IMG/VR virus record: IMGVR_UViG_3300014919_000025
Location: 1-4,704 of that record
Reading direction: 5' to 3' (one strand)
Source of the DNA: a virus
Taxonomy: Duplodnaviria > Heunggongvirae > Uroviricota > Caudoviricetes
Length of the DNA stretch: 4,704 nucleotides
In this document: piece after piece, positions 25 to 4,603 of the stretch
How positions within the stretch are numbered: position 1 is the first letter of the stretch
Layout of the letters: each line of letters begins with the position of its first letter
Program-made: the position numbers and the translations under genes
Notes under the pieces: generated by a model
Seen by the model: only the letters and a program-made list of their open reading frames with translations
The model's database searches: none
What the model was told of the DNA's origin: nothing

Positions 25-657
25 TCATATCAGGCGTAATACCACAACCCTTAAGTTAGCGCTTATGGGGTTTACCCCCTCATTCAAACGGGCTTTCCAG
101 GCTTTGAAGGCTGCAGATTTTGAATTGCCACCAGCACGTTTTGGATAGGCCAGCCATGCCTGCTCAAACTCCGGAGAGTATTCCGGTCGGTTTGAACGAA
201 CTCGCACAGACTCATCAGCAGATGCACCAACAGCTATTGGTTCATTGACTGGTTCTTTGACTGGTTCAAAAGAGTGACTGGTTCTGGGTGAATCTCCTGC
301 ACTACCCCCTGGTGCAACTCCTGCACTACCTGGTGAATTTGCTGCACCAGATAGTGAATTATTTGCACTACCCCCTAGTGAATCTCCTGCACCATCAAGA
401 TGAAGGAGATAGATATTACTTGAGTTACCTTTTTCACCTTTCCGGGTGACTTTTTTTACCAGCCCGGACTCACAAAGGGCCGCAATATGATTCATCACAG
501 AACGTTTGCTAATCTCGCACTGGTCAGCAATATGCTGGTAGCTGGGCCAGCACTCACCCTGATCGCTGGCATTATCAGCCAGCTTAATCAGAACCAGTTT
601 TCGCAATGGATTTCCCACTCGAATTTTCATCGCTTTAACCATCAACTCCATACTCAT
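25..657 (-). CDS. Putative replication-initiation protein (210 aa): N-terminal winged-HTH domain, Gly/Ser/Ala/Pro-rich repetitive linker, short basic C-terminal region
   Basis: ORF-track ORF. The N-terminal region (LVLIKLADNASDQGECWPSYQHIADQCEISKRSVMNHIAALCESGLV) has the pattern of HTH domains found in phage/plasmid replication initiators. The ATG at 657 overlaps the stop of the upstream 74-aa ORF (ATGA at 654-657). It occupies the position of an O-like gene in a cro-cII-O type operon. The product call is inference; the coding call is better supported. Confidence 0.6.
   Translation of the reverse strand: MSMELMVKAMKIRVGNPLRKLVLIKLADNASDQGECWPSYQHIADQCEISKRSVMNHIAALCESGLVKKVTRKGEKGNSSNIYLLHLDGAGDSLGGSANNSLSGAANSPGSAGVAPGGSAGDSPRTSHSFEPVKEPVNEPIAVGASADESVRVRSNRPEYSPEFEQAWLAYPKRAGGNSKSAAFKAWKARLNEGVNPISANLRVVVLRLI
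240..392. repeat. Intragenic short direct repeats (iteron-like) in the linker of the replication gene
   Basis: TGACTGGTTC occurs three times (246-255, 258-267, 275-284). GTGAATCTCCTGCAC occurs twice exactly (288-302, 378-392), with degenerate copies near 332-348 and 352-368. CTGCACTACC(CCCT) occurs at 297-310, 321-330 and 364-376. These encode the low-complexity linker GAGDS / GSAGDSP / EPVKEPVNEP. Confidence 0.6.
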
Positions 658-878
658 GCAGCACCTCCGAGATGCTTCATGTTTTTTCCGGAGCGAAAGG
701 CTATAAGCGGCATACTGACGCGGTAATTACGGCCCAGCGGTTCACAAATCACCTTCTGACATTCACGGTCAACCAGGCTAACACGTAGAACATGCCCTGC
801 AGGCGTGGTGTACCACTGACCCGGACGAGGACAACGGAAAGTATGATTGGTAAACCGTTTGAAAATATTCCGGATCAT
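654..878 (-). CDS. Hypothetical small protein (74 aa), translationally coupled between Rha copy A and the replication gene
   Basis: ORF-track ORF. Its ATG (878-876) overlaps the Rha copy-A stop as ATGA (875-878), and its stop overlaps the next ATG as ATGA (654-657). An AGGGGG Shine-Dalgarno-like motif lies 5 nt upstream of the ATG. No recognisable domain. Confidence 0.4.
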   Translation of the reverse strand: MIRNIFKRFTNHTFRCPRPGQWYTTPAGHVLRVSLVDRECQKVICEPLGRNYRVSMPLIAFRSGKNMKHLGGAA

Positions 879-1756
879 TTACGCCCCCTTACCTCTGAAG
901 GGTTCAGCGACAAATTTATGAGACTGGCCAGTAGCGCCGCGTCGTTGATGCGGTCATACAGACTTACAGCCAGCGGGGATTCGGCTTTTGCCAACATGGG
1001 ATAAAGCTGCTGCAGCCAGACCTTGTGGATTACCGACAGGTGGGAGTAAAGCACGCTGGCGTTATCTGCGGCATCGCTCAGCGTGGATGGCTTTGAAAGC
1101 AGTTTTTCCATCTGGTTAAAGGCATTGATGTATGCCTCTTTGAACCGGGCAGCACGTTTACCCGTGAAACCCATAGCAAGAAACGCAAAACCGTCTCGTG
1201 TGATTTGATAGCAAAGGAGCTTGCGTGTACCACCGTTCGGTTGATTTACCGAAATCGATGTCTCCGCAAAATTGCGGGCACAAAACTCAGGGGAACAATC
1301 CAGAGTGCGGATCTTTTTCAGCACATCGTCGTGACGCTTGGAGAAGAAGTTGGCAACAGCCAAAGAAGTGGTAACGGCCTGGCCGTTGTCAATGGTGATT
1401 TCAGGTTGAGTGAGGGCTGGGATCGTAGCCATGATGGCAGCCTCCGTTGACAGTGAAAAACTTCCACCACCGGAAACGCCAATTTCACTGGTGGTGAACT
1501 GGACGGGGTTGGCGTAACCGGCGTCAACGGAGACCGGCGCACCTTTCGGTGCCCCCGCCCAGCCCACCATAATCTGGATGTGAGCAAATGCGGACGATAA
1601 AAAAGACGCTGGCGCGTCATACATCGCCGTTGACAATTTCAGGACGCCAATCCCGGCACCCGCTTTATAAGGTGCCTGAACAGTGTAACGTCCCGGAATT
1701 GCAGAATCAATATGCTGGTGGCGATTGGTAAACAGTTTGAAAATATTCCGGATCAT
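875..1756 (-). CDS. Rha-family phage regulatory protein, copy A. The full ORF is 293 aa; the Rha domain is the C-terminal 185 aa (875-1432) and has its own SD+ATG
   Basis: Rha hallmarks are present: FFSKRHDDVLKKIRTL and YQITRDGFAFLAMGFTGKRAARFKEAYINAFNQMEK. An internal start ATG at 1432-1430 is preceded by GGAGG (1441-1445 on plus) with an 8-nt spacer. The ORF is also open upstream to an ATG at 1756 that overlaps the copy-B stop (ATGA 1753-1756). Which start is used cannot be decided from sequence alone. Confidence 0.6.
   Translation of the reverse strand: MIRNIFKLFTNRHQHIDSAIPGRYTVQAPYKAGAGIGVLKLSTAMYDAPASFLSSAFAHIQIMVGWAGAPKGAPVSVDAGYANPVQFTTSEIGVSGGGSFSLSTEAAIMATIPALTQPEITIDNGQAVTTSLAVANFFSKRHDDVLKKIRTLDCSPEFCARNFAETSISVNQPNGGTRKLLCYQITRDGFAFLAMGFTGKRAARFKEAYINAFNQMEKLLSKPSTLSDAADNASVLYSHLSVIHKVWLQQLYPMLAKAESPLAVSLYDRINDAALLASLINLSLNPSEVRGRK
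1599..1618 (-). terminator. Terminator-like hairpin plus U-run inside the leader of Rha copy A (possible attenuator)
   Basis: On the minus strand, GACGC-gcca-GCGTC (plus 1605-1618) is followed directly by UUUUUU (plus 1604-1599). The stem is only 5 bp and the element lies within an open reading frame, so confidence is low. Confidence 0.3.
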
Positions 1757-2898
1757 TTACGCCCCCTTACCTCTGAAGGATTCAGCGACAAATTTATGAG
1801 GCAGGCCAGCGCCGAAGCATCATTAATATAGTCATACAAGCTAACAGCCAGCGGAGATTCGGCTTTTGCCAACATAGGATAAAGCTGCTGCAGCCAGACC
1901 TGATGAATTGATGAAATGTAGGAATAGAGAACGCTGGCGTTATGTGCAACGTCGCTCAGTACAGAGGGATTTGAAAGCTGTTTCTCCATCTGGTTAAAGG
2001 CATTGATGTATGCCTCTTTGAACCGGGCAGCACGTTTCCCCGTGAAGCCCATGGCAAGAAACGCAAAACCGTCGCGGGTGATTTGGTAACAAGGGAGTTT
2101 GCGGCCTGTGCAATCGGTGTAATCACTGGGCTGAAAATTCAGCTCAGTGAATTCAACAGAGCACTCAAGCGTCTGGATTTTTTGAATAACGTTTTTGTGC
2201 TGCTTGCAGAAATATTCGGCAACGGCCAAAGAAGAGGTAACAGCCTTCCCATGGATAACATCAATTTTAGGGTGAGTTTGGGTAGGGGTGGTTGCCATAG
2301 TGACATCCTCATGTGCGAATTTTGAAAACTCACCACATGGGACGCCAATCACAGAGGTGGTGAGACGTACAGGGTTGGCGTAACCGGTCGCACATGACCC
2401 CGGCGCATCTTTCGATGCCCCTGCACGCCCCACCATAATTTGGATGTGAGGAAACGTGCGCAAAAAAACCGCTGAAGCGCGGTTATGCGCATGTGCGAAT
2501 TTCAGGACGCCAATCCCGGCACCCGCTTTATAAGGTGCCTGAACAGTGTAACGTCCCGGAATTGCAGAATCAATATGCTGGTGGTCCTTCACACTCAACA
2601 AAATCACGCCTGAATTTCCACAAAGGACTAAAGCACTCATGCGGGTAGTCTTTGCGAAGATAGATAACGCGCTGTGTTTCTGGCTCCCAACGAATAACAT
2701 GGACATAAAGCCCTCTTCCGTCACGAAACCAGCGGTTAAGTTCCTGCACAACTCGCCCCCCACAGTCAGGTAAAGTTCTCTGTGGTTACTTACAGCCAGG
2801 TGATTTGGTAATCTGCATTCATGCCGTAACAACAGGTGTTCAGCGACGCTGACCACCAGCTGTTGCGACAAACGGTTATTTGCCGTTAAACTATTCAT
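1753..2898 (-). CDS. Rha-family phage regulatory protein, copy B, as a composite 381-aa ORF: a Cys/His-containing N-terminal region of about 105 aa, a leader of about 95 aa, and a Rha domain (1753-2298, 181 aa) with its own SD+ATG
   Basis: Rha motifs are present: YFCKQHKNVIQKIQTL and the identical core YQITRDGFAFLAMGFTGKRAARFKEAYINAFNQMEK. The internal ATG at 2298-2296 is preceded by GAGGA (2306-2310 on plus) with a 7-nt spacer. The ATG at 2898 overlaps the stop of the upstream 185-aa gene (ATGA 2895-2898). There is no in-frame stop between 2898 and the Rha domain. Confidence 0.55.
   Translation of the reverse strand: MNSLTANNRLSQQLVVSVAEHLLLRHECRLPNHLAVSNHRELYLTVGGELCRNLTAGFVTEEGFMSMLFVGSQKHSALSIFAKTTRMSALVLCGNSGVILLSVKDHQHIDSAIPGRYTVQAPYKAGAGIGVLKFAHAHNRASAVFLRTFPHIQIMVGRAGASKDAPGSCATGYANPVRLTTSVIGVPCGEFSKFAHEDVTMATTPTQTHPKIDVIHGKAVTSSLAVAEYFCKQHKNVIQKIQTLECSVEFTELNFQPSDYTDCTGRKLPCYQITRDGFAFLAMGFTGKRAARFKEAYINAFNQMEKQLSNPSVLSDVAHNASVLYSYISSIHQVWLQQLYPMLAKAESPLAVSLYDYINDASALACLINLSLNPSEVRGRK
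2462..2484 (-). terminator. Terminator-like hairpin plus U-run inside the leader of Rha copy B (possible attenuator)
   Basis: On the minus strand, AACCGC-gcuuca-GCGGUU (plus 2467-2484) sits next to a run of seven U (plus 2468-2462). It is at the position equivalent to the copy-A element but with a different stem sequence. Confidence 0.3.
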
Positions 2899-3452
2899 GC
2901 GTTAGTTTCTCCACAACCAGAAGCAATCGACGCCACGACGCCCGGAGCTGCACACTCGCGGGCGTTACTCTTTTCTGGAGCGCAGAAGATTTTGTAGACC
3001 AGTGCTGCATGCTCCTGGAGCTTCGAAATTGAAAGATACAGTTCGTCGTTAATTGCTGTCTTCTCATGCGGTTCCACTACACCGTCTTCGATTGCTGAAC
3101 GAATCTGTCTGGAATAACTGCCGATCTGTTCAATGACTTCCAGCAGGCGCTGGTTTATATCGGCGTTCTCTACTGCCTCAATTTCAGGAAGCGATACGAA
3201 CACCCCACCAGCAGACTGTGCGACAGCATCCGCAATGTAGTGAGTGCCAGCCGCACGCTGTAAAACCATTGCCCATCCCAGCGGGAAAATCTGATCGCCA
3301 TCTGCACGAAGGCGGTTGAATAATGCGTTCTCTGTTACATCCAGCCACTCAGCAGCTTCAGCGTAACCCCCCGGCAACGCCGCGATAGTTTTTCTGACAG
3401 CTTTCACGTACCACTCAGGCTGTTTTTCCACTTTCCAGTGATGATTACCCAC
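2895..3452 (-). CDS. Hypothetical regulatory protein at the cII position of the operon (185 aa), possibly CII/YdaT-like
   Basis: ORF-track ORF with a GTG start at 3452, preceded by AGGAGG (revcomp of 3460-3465) with a 7-nt spacer. The start overlaps the cro-like stop by 8 nt. The functional call rests on position only and is a weak inference. Confidence 0.55.
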   Translation of the reverse strand: MGNHHWKVEKQPEWYVKAVRKTIAALPGGYAEAAEWLDVTENALFNRLRADGDQIFPLGWAMVLQRAAGTHYIADAVAQSAGGVFVSLPEIEAVENADINQRLLEVIEQIGSYSRQIRSAIEDGVVEPHEKTAINDELYLSISKLQEHAALVYKIFCAPEKSNARECAAPGVVASIASGCGETNA

Positions 3453-3705
3453 GGCTTACCTCCTGTTCCTGTGGTTTAAACCCATTCTGGTTTTGGCTAG
3501 ATTGAAAACGTGCCGGATAAAGAATCTGCATTTCGCTGATTTCACCCTTAAAAAAATTGGCCAGACGTTCTGCAAGATCGATAGATGGAATTTGTTCCAG
3601 CCTTTCAATACGACTCAGCGTCGCTGGATTGACCTGAACGCCAGCAGCAACATGCTGCAAAGTAAATCCGTGCGCCTTACGCACACTCCGTAATGGTGAT
3701 TGCAT
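3445..3705 (-). CDS. Cro-like XRE-family HTH transcriptional regulator (86 aa)
   Basis: Small HTH protein (GFTLQHVAAGVQVNPATLSRIERLEQIPSIDLAERLANFF) transcribed divergently from the repressor gene. GGAGGT lies immediately upstream of the ATG (revcomp of 3709-3714). It is the first gene of the minus-strand operon. Confidence 0.7.
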   Translation of the reverse strand: MQSPLRSVRKAHGFTLQHVAAGVQVNPATLSRIERLEQIPSIDLAERLANFFKGEISEMQILYPARFQSSQNQNGFKPQEQEVSRG

Positions 3706-3802
3706 ATGACCTCCACATATTGCGTGATGAGCATATTATTTCACGCAAATATTTTGCGCAAGTTGATTTGCTTAACGCGCAATAAAGAAATGTAATAAAC
3801 GC
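3706..3802. promoter_or_regulatory. Divergent promoter/operator region between the cro-like and cI-like genes (OR-like)
   Basis: A 97-bp AT-rich intergenic region carries several related dyad half-sites. These are TTGCGTGA (3720-3727), CGCAA-N5-TTGCG (3744-3758), the palindrome TTGCGCAA (3754-3761) and TTGCT-N5-CGCAA (3768-3782). A candidate minus-strand promoter for cro has -35 TTGCGC (3756-3761) and -10 TAATAT (3733-3738) with a 17-bp spacer. A candidate plus-strand -10 TAATAA (3793-3798) sits just upstream of the repressor ATG. Confidence 0.55.
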
Positions 3803-4495
3803 ATGAACATAGGAAACCGAGTCAGACAACTTCGCCAGGCGAAGAACATGAAAATCGCCGATCTCGCTGAAGCAATAGGAGTGGATGCGGCGAATATCTC
3901 ACGCCTGGAAACAGGTAAGCAGAAACAATTCACTGAACAAGCCCTGAGTAATATTGCCAGGAGCTTAGGTGTTGATATCGCTGATCTCTTTACCTCAGAC
4001 GTCAAAAGTAATACTGTATGTAAAAACAGTATTGGTGAGGATGTTGCGCAGGTGAAGGATGTATTCCGTATTGAAATGCTGGATGTCAGTGCCAGTGCGG
4101 GAAATGGCCTTATCCAGGGCGGTGATGTCATTGATGTGATTCATGCCATTGAATACAGAACTGATAATGCTGTATCGATGTTTGGCGGACGGCCAGCCAA
4201 TCACATTAAAGTTATCAACGTTCGTGGGGACAGTATGTGTCCAACCATTGAGCCAGGAGATCTCATCTTCGTTGATATCAGTATCAATCAGTTTGATGGG
4301 GATGGTATATATGTATTTGGTTTTGATGATAAAATTTACGTCAAACGACTGCAAATGATACCTGATAAACTGCTGGTAATTTCTGATAATCAGATTTACC
4401 GCGAATGGGGAATTACCAGCGAAAACGAACATCGGTTTATGGTCTTTGGAAAGGTCTTAATCAGTCAGTCACAAACCCTTAAGCGACACAATTAA
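3803..4495 (+). CDS. cI-like prophage repressor (230 aa): N-terminal XRE-type HTH plus C-terminal LexA/S24-type autopeptidase domain
   Basis: The N-terminus NIGNRVRQLRQAKNMKIADLAEAIGVDAANISRLETGK is a canonical HTH. The C-terminal domain has the nucleophile in VRGDSM (Ser144) and the general base in YVKRL (Lys181), spaced 37 residues apart as in LexA. A candidate Ala-Gly cleavage site is SASA-GNG (Ala99-Gly100). Confidence 0.85.
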   Translation: MNIGNRVRQLRQAKNMKIADLAEAIGVDAANISRLETGKQKQFTEQALSNIARSLGVDIADLFTSDVKSNTVCKNSIGEDVAQVKDVFRIEMLDVSASAGNGLIQGGDVIDVIHAIEYRTDNAVSMFGGRPANHIKVINVRGDSMCPTIEPGDLIFVDISINQFDGDGIYVFGFDDKIYVKRLQMIPDKLLVISDNQIYREWGITSENEHRFMVFGKVLISQSQTLKRHN

Positions 4496-4550: not shown

Positions 4551-4603
4551 TTGCATATCTCGCAATAAAAACACTTGCATAATGCGCAACTTCATTTTAT
4601 CTT
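4551..4603 (+). promoter_or_regulatory. Second operator-like cluster with a possible plus-strand promoter (OL/PL-like)
   Basis: Two 15-bp sites, TTGCATATCTCGCAA (4551-4565) and TTGCATAATGCGCAA (4575-4589), fit the TTGCG-N5-CGCAA dyad seen in the cI/cro intergenic region. A possible -35 TTGCAT (4575-4580) and -10 TATCTT (4598-4603) have a 17-bp spacer. Promoter direction and function are inferred. Confidence 0.35.

What the first reader, a model, noticed from the sequence alone, without database searches (positions are those of the whole stretch)
1753..2298. Two Rha paralogs share an identical core but have strongly diverged N-terminal thirds
Copy A begins MATIPALTQPEITIDNGQAVTTSLAVANFFSKRHDDVLKKIRTLDCSPEFCARNFAETSISVNQPNGGTRKLL. 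Copy B begins MATTPTQTHPKIDVIHGKAVTSSLAVAEYFCKQHKNVIQKIQTLECSVEFTELNFQPSDYTDCTGRKLP. Both then continue with the identical 35-residue core CYQITRDGFAFLAMGFTGKRAARFKEAYINAFNQMEK and similar tails. Divergence concentrated in one sub-domain next to an invariant core is the pattern expected if the two proteins recognise different targets while keeping a common effector surface. Rha proteins are poorly characterised.
Basis: partly seen in the sequence, partly recalled or inferred. Interest (0 to 1): 0.5.

Follow-up and report, generated by a model that had tools for sequence, protein, structure and literature searches.

The report
Tandem RNA-gated Rha regulator cassettes
The two Rha genes are real, but each belongs to a complete, separately controlled cassette (promoter, small RNA, C4 antisense RNA, Rha gene) of a known phage type, and their "variable front, identical core" pattern is explained mostly by ordinary domain conservation plus phage recombination.

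Summary
Two intact Rha (Pfam Phage_pRha) genes lie in tandem on the minus strand: copy B at 1753-2298 and copy A at 875-1432. They are 71% identical. A 37-residue core (not 35) is identical, and the N-terminal part matches at 33 of 73 positions.

The repeated unit is larger than the gene. It is an ~870-bp cassette: an isrK-type promoter, an IsrK-like RNA with a terminator, a C4 antisense RNA, then Rha. Each C4 hairpin loop is complementary over 10 nt to the ribosome-binding site of its own Rha and not to the other's. This design is known from P1/P7 c4-icd-ant and Gifsy-1 isrK-orf45-anrP, but here the cargo is pRha.

Variable part and core belong to one folded domain. The core is the most conserved stretch of the whole family, and A/B differences fall where the family varies anyway. 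Synonymous divergence is about three times higher in the N-terminal part than in the core. N-terminal types are mosaics that occur with many C4 types. The common single-copy gene (E. coli O104:H4) is an exact B-front/A-back chimera.

Tandems are rare: 13 of 5426 E. coli genomes. Different targets for A and B remain possible but untested. Interest is modest.

The parts
1723..2585 (-). Repeat unit B: a complete cassette of promoter, IsrK-like RNA, C4 RNA, Rha B, plus the first 33 nt (codons 1-11) of the downstream 74-aa ORF
   Evidence: Repeat boundaries. Spacing to unit A is 863-878 nt.
845..1722 (-). Repeat unit A: the same cassette carrying Rha A
2545..2573 (-). Unit B promoter-like site: -35 TTGATT (2568-2573), 17-nt spacer, -10 TACACT (2545-2550)
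   Evidence: Aligns with the Gifsy-1 isrK promoter region. TTGA is invariant in all 6 sequences aligned. Coordinates. It falls below the 9-of-12 threshold of the simple scan. The assignment is by inference.
1682..1710 (-). Unit A promoter-like site, identical in sequence to that of unit B
2462..2538 (-). IsrK-like RNA of unit B, with a1 (2507-2513), b1 (2490-2498) and an intrinsic terminator (2462-2484)
   Evidence: Rfam RF01394 at 62.3 bits (gathering score 50). Terminator. Sites.
1599..1675 (-). IsrK-like RNA of unit A, with a1 (1644-1650), b1 (1627-1634) and an intrinsic terminator (1599-1618)
   Evidence: Rfam RF01394 at 62.2 bits..
2353..2440 (-). C4 antisense RNA of unit B. Hairpin loop b' is UCAUGUGCGA (2388-2397). 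Single-stranded a' is ACGCCAA (2375-2381). An AUG lies at 2434-2436.
   Evidence: Rfam RF01695 at 75.1 bits (gathering score 45). All 27 of 27 base pairs are formed.
1487..1574 (-). C4 antisense RNA of unit A. b' is CUCCGUUGAC (1523-1532). a' is ACGCCAA (1509-1515). An AUG lies at 1568-1570.
   Evidence: Rfam RF01695 at 81.4 bits. 27 of 27 pairs are formed, and 5 pairs differ from unit B by compensatory changes on both sides.
2306..2348 (-). Unit B leader targets: a2 TTGGCGT (2342-2348) and b2 TCGCACATGA (2309-2318), which overlaps the Shine-Dalgarno GAGGA (2306-2310)
   Evidence: 10-nt complement to loop B. Duplex energy -16.6 kcal/mol cognate, -9.9 cross.
1441..1482 (-). Unit A leader targets: a2 TTGGCGT (1476-1482) and b2 GTCAACGGAG (1442-1451), which overlaps the Shine-Dalgarno GGAGG (1441-1445)
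   Evidence: 10-nt complement to loop A. Duplex energy -23.8 kcal/mol cognate, -6.4 cross.
1753..2298 (-). Rha B coding sequence (181 aa). Variable part 2092-2298, identical core 1981-2091.
875..1432 (-). Rha A coding sequence (185 aa). Variable part 1214-1432, identical core 1103-1213.
2570..2749 (-). Upstream flank: DUF4222 gene, whose stop codon lies within the -35 element of unit B
   Evidence: Pfam PF13973 at 51 bits. Coordinates.
654..878 (-). Downstream flank: 74-aa ORF (PHROG 1153). Its first 33 nt (codons 1-11) are repeated at the B/A junction.

Best explanation
Shown from sequence: the window is the early-right region of a lambdoid prophage of E. coli. On the minus strand the order is cro-like gene, cII/YmfL-like gene, DUF4222 gene, [cassette B], [cassette A], 74-aa ORF, O-like gene. 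Each cassette has these parts in order: an isrK-type promoter; an IsrK-like RNA carrying sites a1 and b1 and ending in an intrinsic terminator; a C4-type antisense RNA with single-stranded a' and hairpin-loop b'; a 55-nt leader with a2 and with b2 over the Shine-Dalgarno sequence; then the Rha gene. The two cassettes share the promoter, the IsrK 5' part and the a element. Their b elements differ completely, and b1, b' and b2 are all changed in register.

Inferred by homology with P1/P7 c4-icd-ant and Gifsy-1 isrK-orf45-anrP: most transcripts stop at the IsrK terminator. Readthrough transcripts yield C4, which pairs with a2/b2 and blocks translation of its own Rha. Short IsrK RNA, which carries a1/b1, relieves that block. 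Rha is then the output regulator that pushes the prophage towards lytic development.

The protein pattern has two causes. First, the 37-residue core is helices a4-a5 of the single pRha domain. It is the most constrained part of the whole family and is under strict purifying selection here (dN = 0, with 8 synonymous differences). Second, the part in front of it (b1-b2-a1-a2-a3-b-hairpin) tolerates change family-wide, and in these two genes it also has an older, recombinant history.

The two cassettes are old alleles, not a recent in-place duplication, and were brought into tandem by recombination. Such tandems are rare. They collapse through the conserved blocks and leave chimeric Rha genes such as the one in E. 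coli O104:H4.
For: RNA elements: Rfam finds C4 at 81.4 and 75.1 bits and isrK at 62 bits in both units. All 27 C4 base pairs are kept in both units, with 5 double compensatory changes. Both terminators are found. The promoter aligns with the Gifsy-1 isrK promoter region.

Pairing: each loop has 10 nt complementary to its own Shine-Dalgarno region and 8-9 nt to its own upstream site, but only 4-5 nt to the other unit's sites. Duplex energies are -23.8 and -16.6 kcal/mol for cognate pairs, -6.4 and -9.9 for cross pairs. Across related loci there are 16 loop types, and 13 of them have a 9-11-nt cognate match. The a element covaries as well.

Same layout elsewhere: Gifsy-1, P1 and P7, and Marinomonas, Endozoicomonas and Veronia.

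Protein: pRha spans both the variable part and the core. The models have pLDDT 83 and 90 and show one domain. By segment, dS/dN is 1.47/0.43 (N-terminal), 0.47/0 (core) and 0.66/0.11 (C-terminal). Family entropy is 1.24 bits in the core, 1.82 in the N-terminal part and 2.45 in the C-terminal part, and A/B differences sit on family-variable positions, p = 2e-7. One N-terminal type occurs with 7 different C4 loops, and the N-terminal types are segment mosaics.

History: the single-copy O104:H4 unit is 100% unit B in front and 100% unit A behind. The tandem junction occurs in 13 of 5426 E. coli genomes. Other tandem combinations, including a triple, are in L006, L053, L055, L082 and L089.

Functional precedent: in Gifsy-1, IsrK supplied in trans activates anrP translation about 100-fold, and AnrP induces the prophage (PMC4825925).
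Against: No expression or binding data exist for this locus. RNA processing, terminator readthrough, repression by C4 and the activity of Rha are all inferred.

The cargo proteins of the two studied systems are not pRha. P1 Ant1 carries only the ANT/KilAC domain and AnrP is ORF6N. Profile comparison of pRha with ORF6N gives a probability below 2%. Transferring 'antirepressor/inducer' to Rha therefore rests on position in the cassette only.

The related loci were fetched with peptide patterns taken from the core, which biases that set. The exhaustive search corrects this only partly.

The promoter matches just 8 of 12 consensus positions and was missed by the simple scan.

The dS value for the N-terminal part is near saturation. 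The 53-nt identical run in the core could reflect some gene conversion.
Confidence: 0.75

Rival explanations
1. After duplication the two Rha proteins specialised to recognise different targets, either DNA sites or repressors of different prophages, through the variable N-terminal part. They kept a common surface in the core for a shared partner.
For: Differences cluster in helix a2 (5 of 9), helix a3 (4 of 7), strand b3 (6 of 7) and the hairpin loop (4 of 5, plus a 4-residue insertion that lengthens the hairpin), all in confidently folded regions. Weak fold matches are nearly all winged-helix DNA binders. Both genes are intact and each has its own orthogonal RNA gate. dN/dS is below 1 in the variable part, so it is still constrained.
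Against: The same positions vary across the whole family. N-terminal types are shuffled mosaics and are not tied to the RNA specificity type. The alleles are old and are found singly in other phages, so they did not diverge after duplication. The tandem is rare and collapses readily. The core is part of the same domain and not a separate effector module. No target is known.
Confidence: 0.3
2. A recent duplication in place, followed by fast divergence of the N-terminal part while the core stayed fixed.
For: The tandem arrangement has a clean junction that repeats the first 33 nt of the downstream ORF. About 87 nt at the 5' end of the units are identical.
Against: Overall dS is 0.82 and is near saturation in the N-terminal part. 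The C4 stems differ by 5 compensated pairs and the whole b system is replaced. Each allele occurs by itself or with other partners in other genomes.
Confidence: 0.03
3. The tandem is a neutral, transient by-product of recombination between two heteroimmune phages. One cassette is redundant and is on its way to deletion, so the protein differences have no functional meaning in this genome.
For: Only 13 of 5426 genomes carry such a junction, while 1085 match at least one half of the junction query. The O104:H4 gene looks like a collapsed tandem. L082 carries a module in which the C4 loop and its target are mismatched, so imperfect recombinants do persist.
Against: Both cassettes are fully intact in every element. 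The same B-A pair is found at 99-100% identity in several genomes and viral contigs. Tandems with other combinations recur in distant hosts (L089, Symbiopectobacterium).
Confidence: 0.3
4. Gene conversion between the two copies homogenised the core, so its identity reflects recombination and not selection.
For: There is a 53-nt identical run inside the core, and dS there is only 0.19-0.24 against 0.5-0.9 in neighbouring windows.
Against: The core still has 8 synonymous and 0 non-synonymous differences. The same stretch is the most conserved in distant family members that cannot have converted each other.
Confidence: 0.15

Closest known systems
Phage P1/P7 immI region (c4-icd-ant; C4 antisense RNA, Rfam RF01695)
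   Same: The order is a1, b1, C4, a2, b2, with b2 over the Shine-Dalgarno of the first downstream gene (P1 annotation). The C4 fold matches. Specificity is set by covarying antisense and target sequences, as between P1 and P7.
   Different: The cargo here is a pRha protein, not Ant with its ANT/KilAC domain. There is no icd gene. The leader frame is fused to the cargo gene instead. P1 and P7 differ by 2 nt in both a and b, whereas the window units share a and differ across the whole of b. The window has two cassettes in tandem in one genome, located in a lambdoid early operon.
Salmonella Gifsy-1 isrK-orf45-anrP locus (Hershko-Shalev et al. 2016, PMC4825925)
   Same: It has IsrK RNA with a terminator, then a C4-like RNA (their STnc1160/orf45 region), then about 54 nt to the cargo start. 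The AUG sits at the 5' end of C4. The b' loop is complementary to the cargo Shine-Dalgarno. The promoter region is alignable.
   Different: The cargo AnrP is an ORF6N protein with no detectable similarity to Rha. orf45 ends in an AUGA overlap with anrP, whereas here the frame runs on into Rha. The Gifsy-1 locus lies downstream of the Q antiterminator gene, while this one lies between the cII-like and O-like genes. Gifsy-1 has a single copy.
rha genes of phages phi80 and P22 (founders of Pfam PF09669)
   Same: The domain is the same.
   Different: From my own knowledge, not tested here: those rha genes are late-operon genes known for blocking phage growth in IHF-deficient hosts, and no C4/IsrK control has been described for them.
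Satellite phage P4 immunity (seqA-CI RNA-seqC)
   Same: A processed antisense RNA is flanked by upstream and downstream complementary sites. The Gifsy-1 paper cites it as a structural relative of IsrK.
   Different: According to that paper, P4 CI acts by transcription termination and not by occluding a ribosome-binding site. This was not examined here.

Membership tests
Pfam Phage_pRha (PF09669) / Rha family | Full-length match to the family profile above the curated cut-off | tested here: met
   113 bits (B, residues 21-106) and 95 bits (A, residues 21-110), cut-off 29.9. PHROG 821/995/518 'transcriptional regulator / Rha-like'.
Pfam Phage_pRha (PF09669) / Rha family | The rha phenotype: interference with phage growth in hosts lacking IHF | not testable with these tools
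   Needs genetics.
P1/P7 immI-type C4 antisense control | C4 RNA sequence and fold | tested here: met
   RF01695 at 81.4 and 75.1 bits, gathering score 45, full length. 27 of 27 pairs formed, 5 of them compensated between the units.
P1/P7 immI-type C4 antisense control | a'/b' complementary to a2/b2 downstream, with b2 over the ribosome-binding site | tested here: met
   7-nt a pairing and 10-nt b pairing in both units. Covariation across 16 loop types.
P1/P7 immI-type C4 antisense control | Upstream copy of the targets (a1/b1) | tested here: met
   a1 of 7 nt and b1 of 8-9 nt in both units. The Rfam c4-a1b1 model itself scores only 21.6 bits, below its gathering score of 46.7.
P1/P7 immI-type C4 antisense control | icd-type small gene coupled to ant, and an Ant cargo protein | tested here: not met
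   No icd gene is present. The cargo has no ANT/KilAC domain.
P1/P7 immI-type C4 antisense control | C4 released from the transcript by processing, and repression of translation in vivo | not testable with these tools
   Needs RNA and reporter experiments.
Gifsy-1 isrK locus type | IsrK RNA with an intrinsic terminator directly upstream of the C4-like RNA | tested here: met
   RF01394 at 62.3 and 62.2 bits, gathering score 50. Terminators. Same order as in Gifsy-1.
Gifsy-1 isrK locus type | Leader ORF starting at the AUG in the C4 5' end and coupled to the cargo by an AUGA overlap | tested here: not met
   The AUG is present, but the frame is fused in frame to Rha with no stop. Gifsy-1 has the AUGA overlap.
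Gifsy-1 isrK locus type | ORF6N cargo (AnrP) | tested here: not met
   AnrP is PF10543. BLASTP and hhalign show no relation to Rha. Shared hits to PHROG 373 and 63 are only a weak lead.
Antirepressor (functional class) | Binds and inactivates a phage repressor | not testable with these tools
   Suggested only by position in the cassette and by database names.
Winged-helix DNA-binding domains | Significant structural match to a solved winged-helix domain | tested here: inconclusive

The most novel reading that the evidence does not exclude
The tandem is a working two-channel switch. Two Rha regulators with different recognition surfaces (a2-a3-hairpin) each sit behind an orthogonal C4/b2 gate but share the promoter and the a element. 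This would let one prophage act on two different targets, for example its own repressor and that of a co-resident prophage. Repeated stacking and collapse of such cassettes would be the way new Rha chimeras and new RNA/protein combinations are produced.
Probability: 0.2. Interest if true: 0.6.

Novelty: new variant of a known kind. Interest (0 to 1): 0.33.

Why it matters
Rha proteins are among the most common phage "regulators" with no known mechanism: the exhaustive search found 10,255 representative clusters, and no solved structure is related by sequence or fold. This locus places them as the output of a well-understood RNA switch, which gives a concrete way to turn them on and test what they do. 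The natural A/B pair and the natural chimera in O104:H4 are ready-made swap constructs for mapping what the variable part recognises. The 16 or more loop/target types form a natural set of orthogonal antisense gates. The work also flags an annotation problem: genome pipelines call long "Rha" or "Ash family" proteins across DNA that encodes the IsrK and C4 RNAs.

Tried and rejected
1. My recollection that P1 Ant and Gifsy-1 AnrP contain a pRha domain was tested and is false. They are ANT/KilAC and ORF6N, with no BLASTP similarity to Rha.

2. pRha-ORF6N remote homology: hhalign gave a probability of 1.5% against the single sequence and 0.4% profile against profile. The ORF6N profile was shallow, with all hits at least 85% identical. 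I make no claim.

3. The idea that the C4 type and the Rha N-terminal type travel together as one specificity cassette is rejected. One N-terminal type occurs with 7 different loops.

4. Recent duplication in place is rejected by dS.

6. Duplex folding of the whole C4 against whole leaders was meaningless because it ignores intramolecular structure. I replaced it with an exact-complement test and with loop-only duplexes.

7. A regex for start codons mis-called B-type genes. I redid this from tblastn anchors.

8. One literature search was wasted because 'rha' matched as a word start. The whole-word search found only annotation-level mentions of Rha.

9. The first conservation profile used loci retrieved through core peptides and is biased. 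I repeated it on the exhaustive HMMER hits.

Full report
**1. Checking the observation**

The window is the immunity/early-right region of a lambdoid E. coli prophage. A CI-like repressor (3803-4495) lies on the plus strand. On the minus strand lie a cro-like gene (3445-3705), a cII/YmfL-like gene (2895-3452), a DUF4222 gene (2570-2749), the two Rha genes, a 74-aa ORF (654-878) and an O-like HTH gene (25-657). An identical stretch occurs in E. coli SCU-172, next to mlrA.

The two quoted proteins exist. Copy B is at 1753-2298 and copy A is at 875-1432, both on the minus strand.
- They are 71% identical, with E = 2e-97.
- Both are full-length Pfam Phage_pRha matches, at 113 and 95 bits.
- The identical core has 37 residues, not 35.
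- The N-terminal part is identical at 33 of 73 positions and has a 4-residue indel. The C-terminal part is identical at 62 of 75.

**2. What is repeated is a cassette, not a gene**

Direct repeats and the alignment show two units, 1723-2585 and 845-1722, that are alignable over their whole length. Each unit holds the following on the minus strand.
- Rfam finds an IsrK RNA (62 bits, gathering score 50) followed by a full-length C4 antisense RNA (75 and 81 bits, gathering score 45), upstream of each Rha.
- Each IsrK ends in an intrinsic terminator.
- The 5' end of each unit carries TTGATT-17 nt-TACACT. This aligns with the region of the Gifsy-1 isrK promoter, which was demonstrated by experiment. 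The TTGA is invariant from E. coli to Marinomonas (coordinates).

Both C4 copies form all 27 model base pairs, and 5 pairs differ between the units by compensatory changes on both sides. Differences in this upstream stretch show no codon-position bias (15/17/13), while the Rha coding sequence shows the usual third-position excess (15/12/29 and 11/6/33). So this stretch evolves as RNA.

**3. The antisense logic**

I use P1's annotated nomenclature: a1, b1, C4, a2, b2, with b2 at the ribosome-binding site.

The C4 hairpin loop b' of unit A (CUCCGUUGAC) is complementary to GTCAACGGAG, which overlaps the Rha A Shine-Dalgarno sequence. It is also complementary to GTCAACGG upstream (b1). The loop of unit B (UCAUGUGCGA) is complementary to TCGCACATGA at the Rha B Shine-Dalgarno and to TCGCACATG upstream. 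Cross matches are only 4-5 nt.

Loop-only duplex energies, in kcal/mol:

| Loop | Own b2 | Other unit's b2 |
|---|---|---|
| A | -23.8 | -6.4 |
| B | -16.6 | -9.9 |

The a element (ACGCCAA pairing with TTGGCGT) is the same in both units.

In 137 related loci I found 16 different loop sequences. Thirteen of them have a 9-11-nt cognate complement at the Shine-Dalgarno of the downstream Rha, while non-cognate matches are mostly 5 nt or fewer. The a element covaries too. The same isrK-C4-Rha order occurs in Marinomonas, Endozoicomonas and Veronia. P1 and P7, the classical heteroimmune pair, differ by 2 nt in each of a and b, with matching changes in all three copies. The window units share a and differ over the whole of b.

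**4. Relation to the studied systems**

Gifsy-1 has isrK, then C4 (69 bits), then 54 nt to anrP. Its loop CGGTGAT is complementary to ATCACCG at the anrP Shine-Dalgarno.

The paper on that locus reports three results (PMC4825925):
- transcripts read through the IsrK terminator but are translationally silent;
- IsrK supplied in trans activates translation more than 100-fold, through an upstream ORF (orf45);
- AnrP expression induces the prophage.

The mechanism I propose for the window is inferred from this work and from P1. C4 blocks its own Rha at the ribosome-binding site, IsrK relieves the block, and Rha is the output.

The cargo proteins, however, are not the same family. AnrP is ORF6N and P1 Ant1 is ANT/KilAC. 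Neither BLASTP nor profile comparison links them to pRha. I had recalled otherwise, and the test corrected that. The RNA cassette therefore appears to be a portable gate used with at least three cargo families. 'Antirepressor' for Rha remains a guess based on position.

**5. Why the proteins look the way they do**

AlphaFold models are confident: pLDDT 83 for full-length B, and pLDDT 90 with pTM 0.78 for the A domain. They show one compact domain with the order b1-b2-a1-a2-a3-b3/b4 hairpin-a4-a5, followed by a long helical hairpin. The 4-residue indel lengthens the b-hairpin.

A/B differences by element:

| Element | Differences |
|---|---|
| a2 | 5 of 9 |
| a3 | 4 of 7 |
| b3 | 6 of 7 |
| hairpin loop | 4 of 5 |
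| a4 | 0 |
| MGFTG loop | 0 |
| a5 | 1 of 22 |

Three results make a special explanation unnecessary.
- **Family-wide constraint.** I used an exhaustive HMMER search that needs no shared words (10,255 representative clusters). The core has the lowest entropy of the family: 1.24 bits, against 1.82 in the N-terminal part and 2.45 in the C-terminal part. Positions where A and B differ are the family's variable positions: 2.37 vs 1.23 bits, p = 2e-7.
- **Different histories.** Synonymous divergence differs along the gene: dS is 1.47 in the N-terminal part, 0.47 in the core and 0.66 in the C-terminal part. dN is 0 in the core despite 8 synonymous differences. The core is held by purifying selection, and the front has an older history.
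- **Mosaicism.** The N-terminal types are mosaics of recurring alternative segments, for example SKRHDDVLKKIRTL or CKQHKNVIQKIQTL, and a short or a long hairpin. They are not tied to the C4 type: one N-terminal type sits behind 7 different loops.

**6. Origin and fate of the tandem**

The usual arrangement is one cassette. Matches in O104:H4 strains, phage cdtI, mEp460, Stx phages and ST64B span exactly one unit less than the query. A junction of Rha 3' end to isrK 5' end is present in 13 of 5426 complete E. coli genomes, while 1085 genomes match at least one half of the junction query. Other tandem combinations, and one triple, occur in viral contigs and in Symbiopectobacterium, and each Rha there has its own C4.

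The single-copy O104:H4 unit is 100% identical to unit B from the upstream flank to about Rha codon 135-155. From there it is 100% identical to unit A to the end and beyond. This is the product expected from homologous recombination between the conserved 3' halves of a B-A tandem. The units share identical runs of 87, 53, 45 and 25 nt. Stacking and collapse of cassettes through these blocks is a simple source of the mosaicism.

**7. Verdict**

The finding is real, but its interest lies mainly in the context. It is a tandem pair of complete isrK/C4-gated pRha cassettes with orthogonal b specificity, which is a new arrangement of a known kind of phage switch. Nothing here is expression or binding data, so all mechanistic steps beyond sequence complementarity and fold are inferred.

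Noticed in passing
window 1433-1756 and 2299-2898 (minus strand): RefSeq/PGAP annotates 293-aa and 381-aa 'Rha family' proteins (WP_001571188.1, WP_016235941.1) that run through the IsrK and C4 RNAs, and in B also across the DUF4222 gene. Pfam PF10554 'Ash protein family' matches exactly the IsrK+C4 stretch (74.8 and 54.7 bits). In other E. coli genomes the same DNA is called 'ash family protein'. The stretch shows no coding signature, so this family looks like a translation of structured RNA.
   Followed up: partly
window 1433-1570 and 2299-2436 (minus strand); loci L001-L130: The AUG at the 5' end of C4 lies 138 nt (141 nt in other module types) upstream of the Rha ATG. It is in frame with Rha, with no stop between, in 22 of 26 module types. 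Over 21 distinct spacers the Rha frame holds 1 stop in total, against 34 and 15 in the other two frames. This is the counterpart of Gifsy-1 orf45, which ends in an AUGA overlap, but here it is fused to Rha. A longer Rha isoform of about +46 aa is possible, reminiscent of the in-frame P1 Ant1/Ant2 pair.
   Followed up: partly
window 528-539, 1708-1719, 2571-2582 (minus strand): The 12-mer ACCAGCATATTG occurs exactly three times against 0.04 expected. Two copies are at the 5' edge of each cassette, overlapping the -35 element. The third is inside the O-like gene. It could be a protein-binding site or a recombination scar.
   Followed up: no
L082 648-3043: Three Rha cassettes lie in tandem. The third has the C4 loop CTATGTTGA but the Shine-Dalgarno site TCACCAAAG, which gives two mismatches. 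It appears to be a recombinant in which C4 no longer matches its own target.
   Followed up: no
window 2570-2575: The stop codon of the DUF4222 gene lies inside the -35 hexamer of cassette B. At the B/A junction, the first 33 nt (codons 1-11) of the 74-aa ORF (PHROG 1153) are repeated and overlap the Rha B stop as ATGA.
   Followed up: no
window 288-392: Imperfect 24-42-nt repeats inside the O-like gene encode a Gly/Ser/Ala/Pro-rich linker (GDSLGGSANNSLSGAANSPGSAGVAPGGSAGDSP) between its N-terminal HTH_36/DnaD_N-like part and its C-terminal part.
   Followed up: no
window 3768-3786 and 4551-4569: Two similar 19-mers, TTGCTTAACGCGCAATAAA and TTGCATATCTCGCAATAAA, flank the CI-like repressor gene. 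One lies in the cI/cro divergent region and one lies downstream of cI. They are candidate operator-like sites.
   Followed up: no
proteins P0239, P0240, P0241: Some database proteins of 470-820 aa contain two Rha matches. They probably represent tandem cassettes annotated as a single open frame, so tandem arrays may be more widespread than the E. coli count suggests.
   Followed up: no
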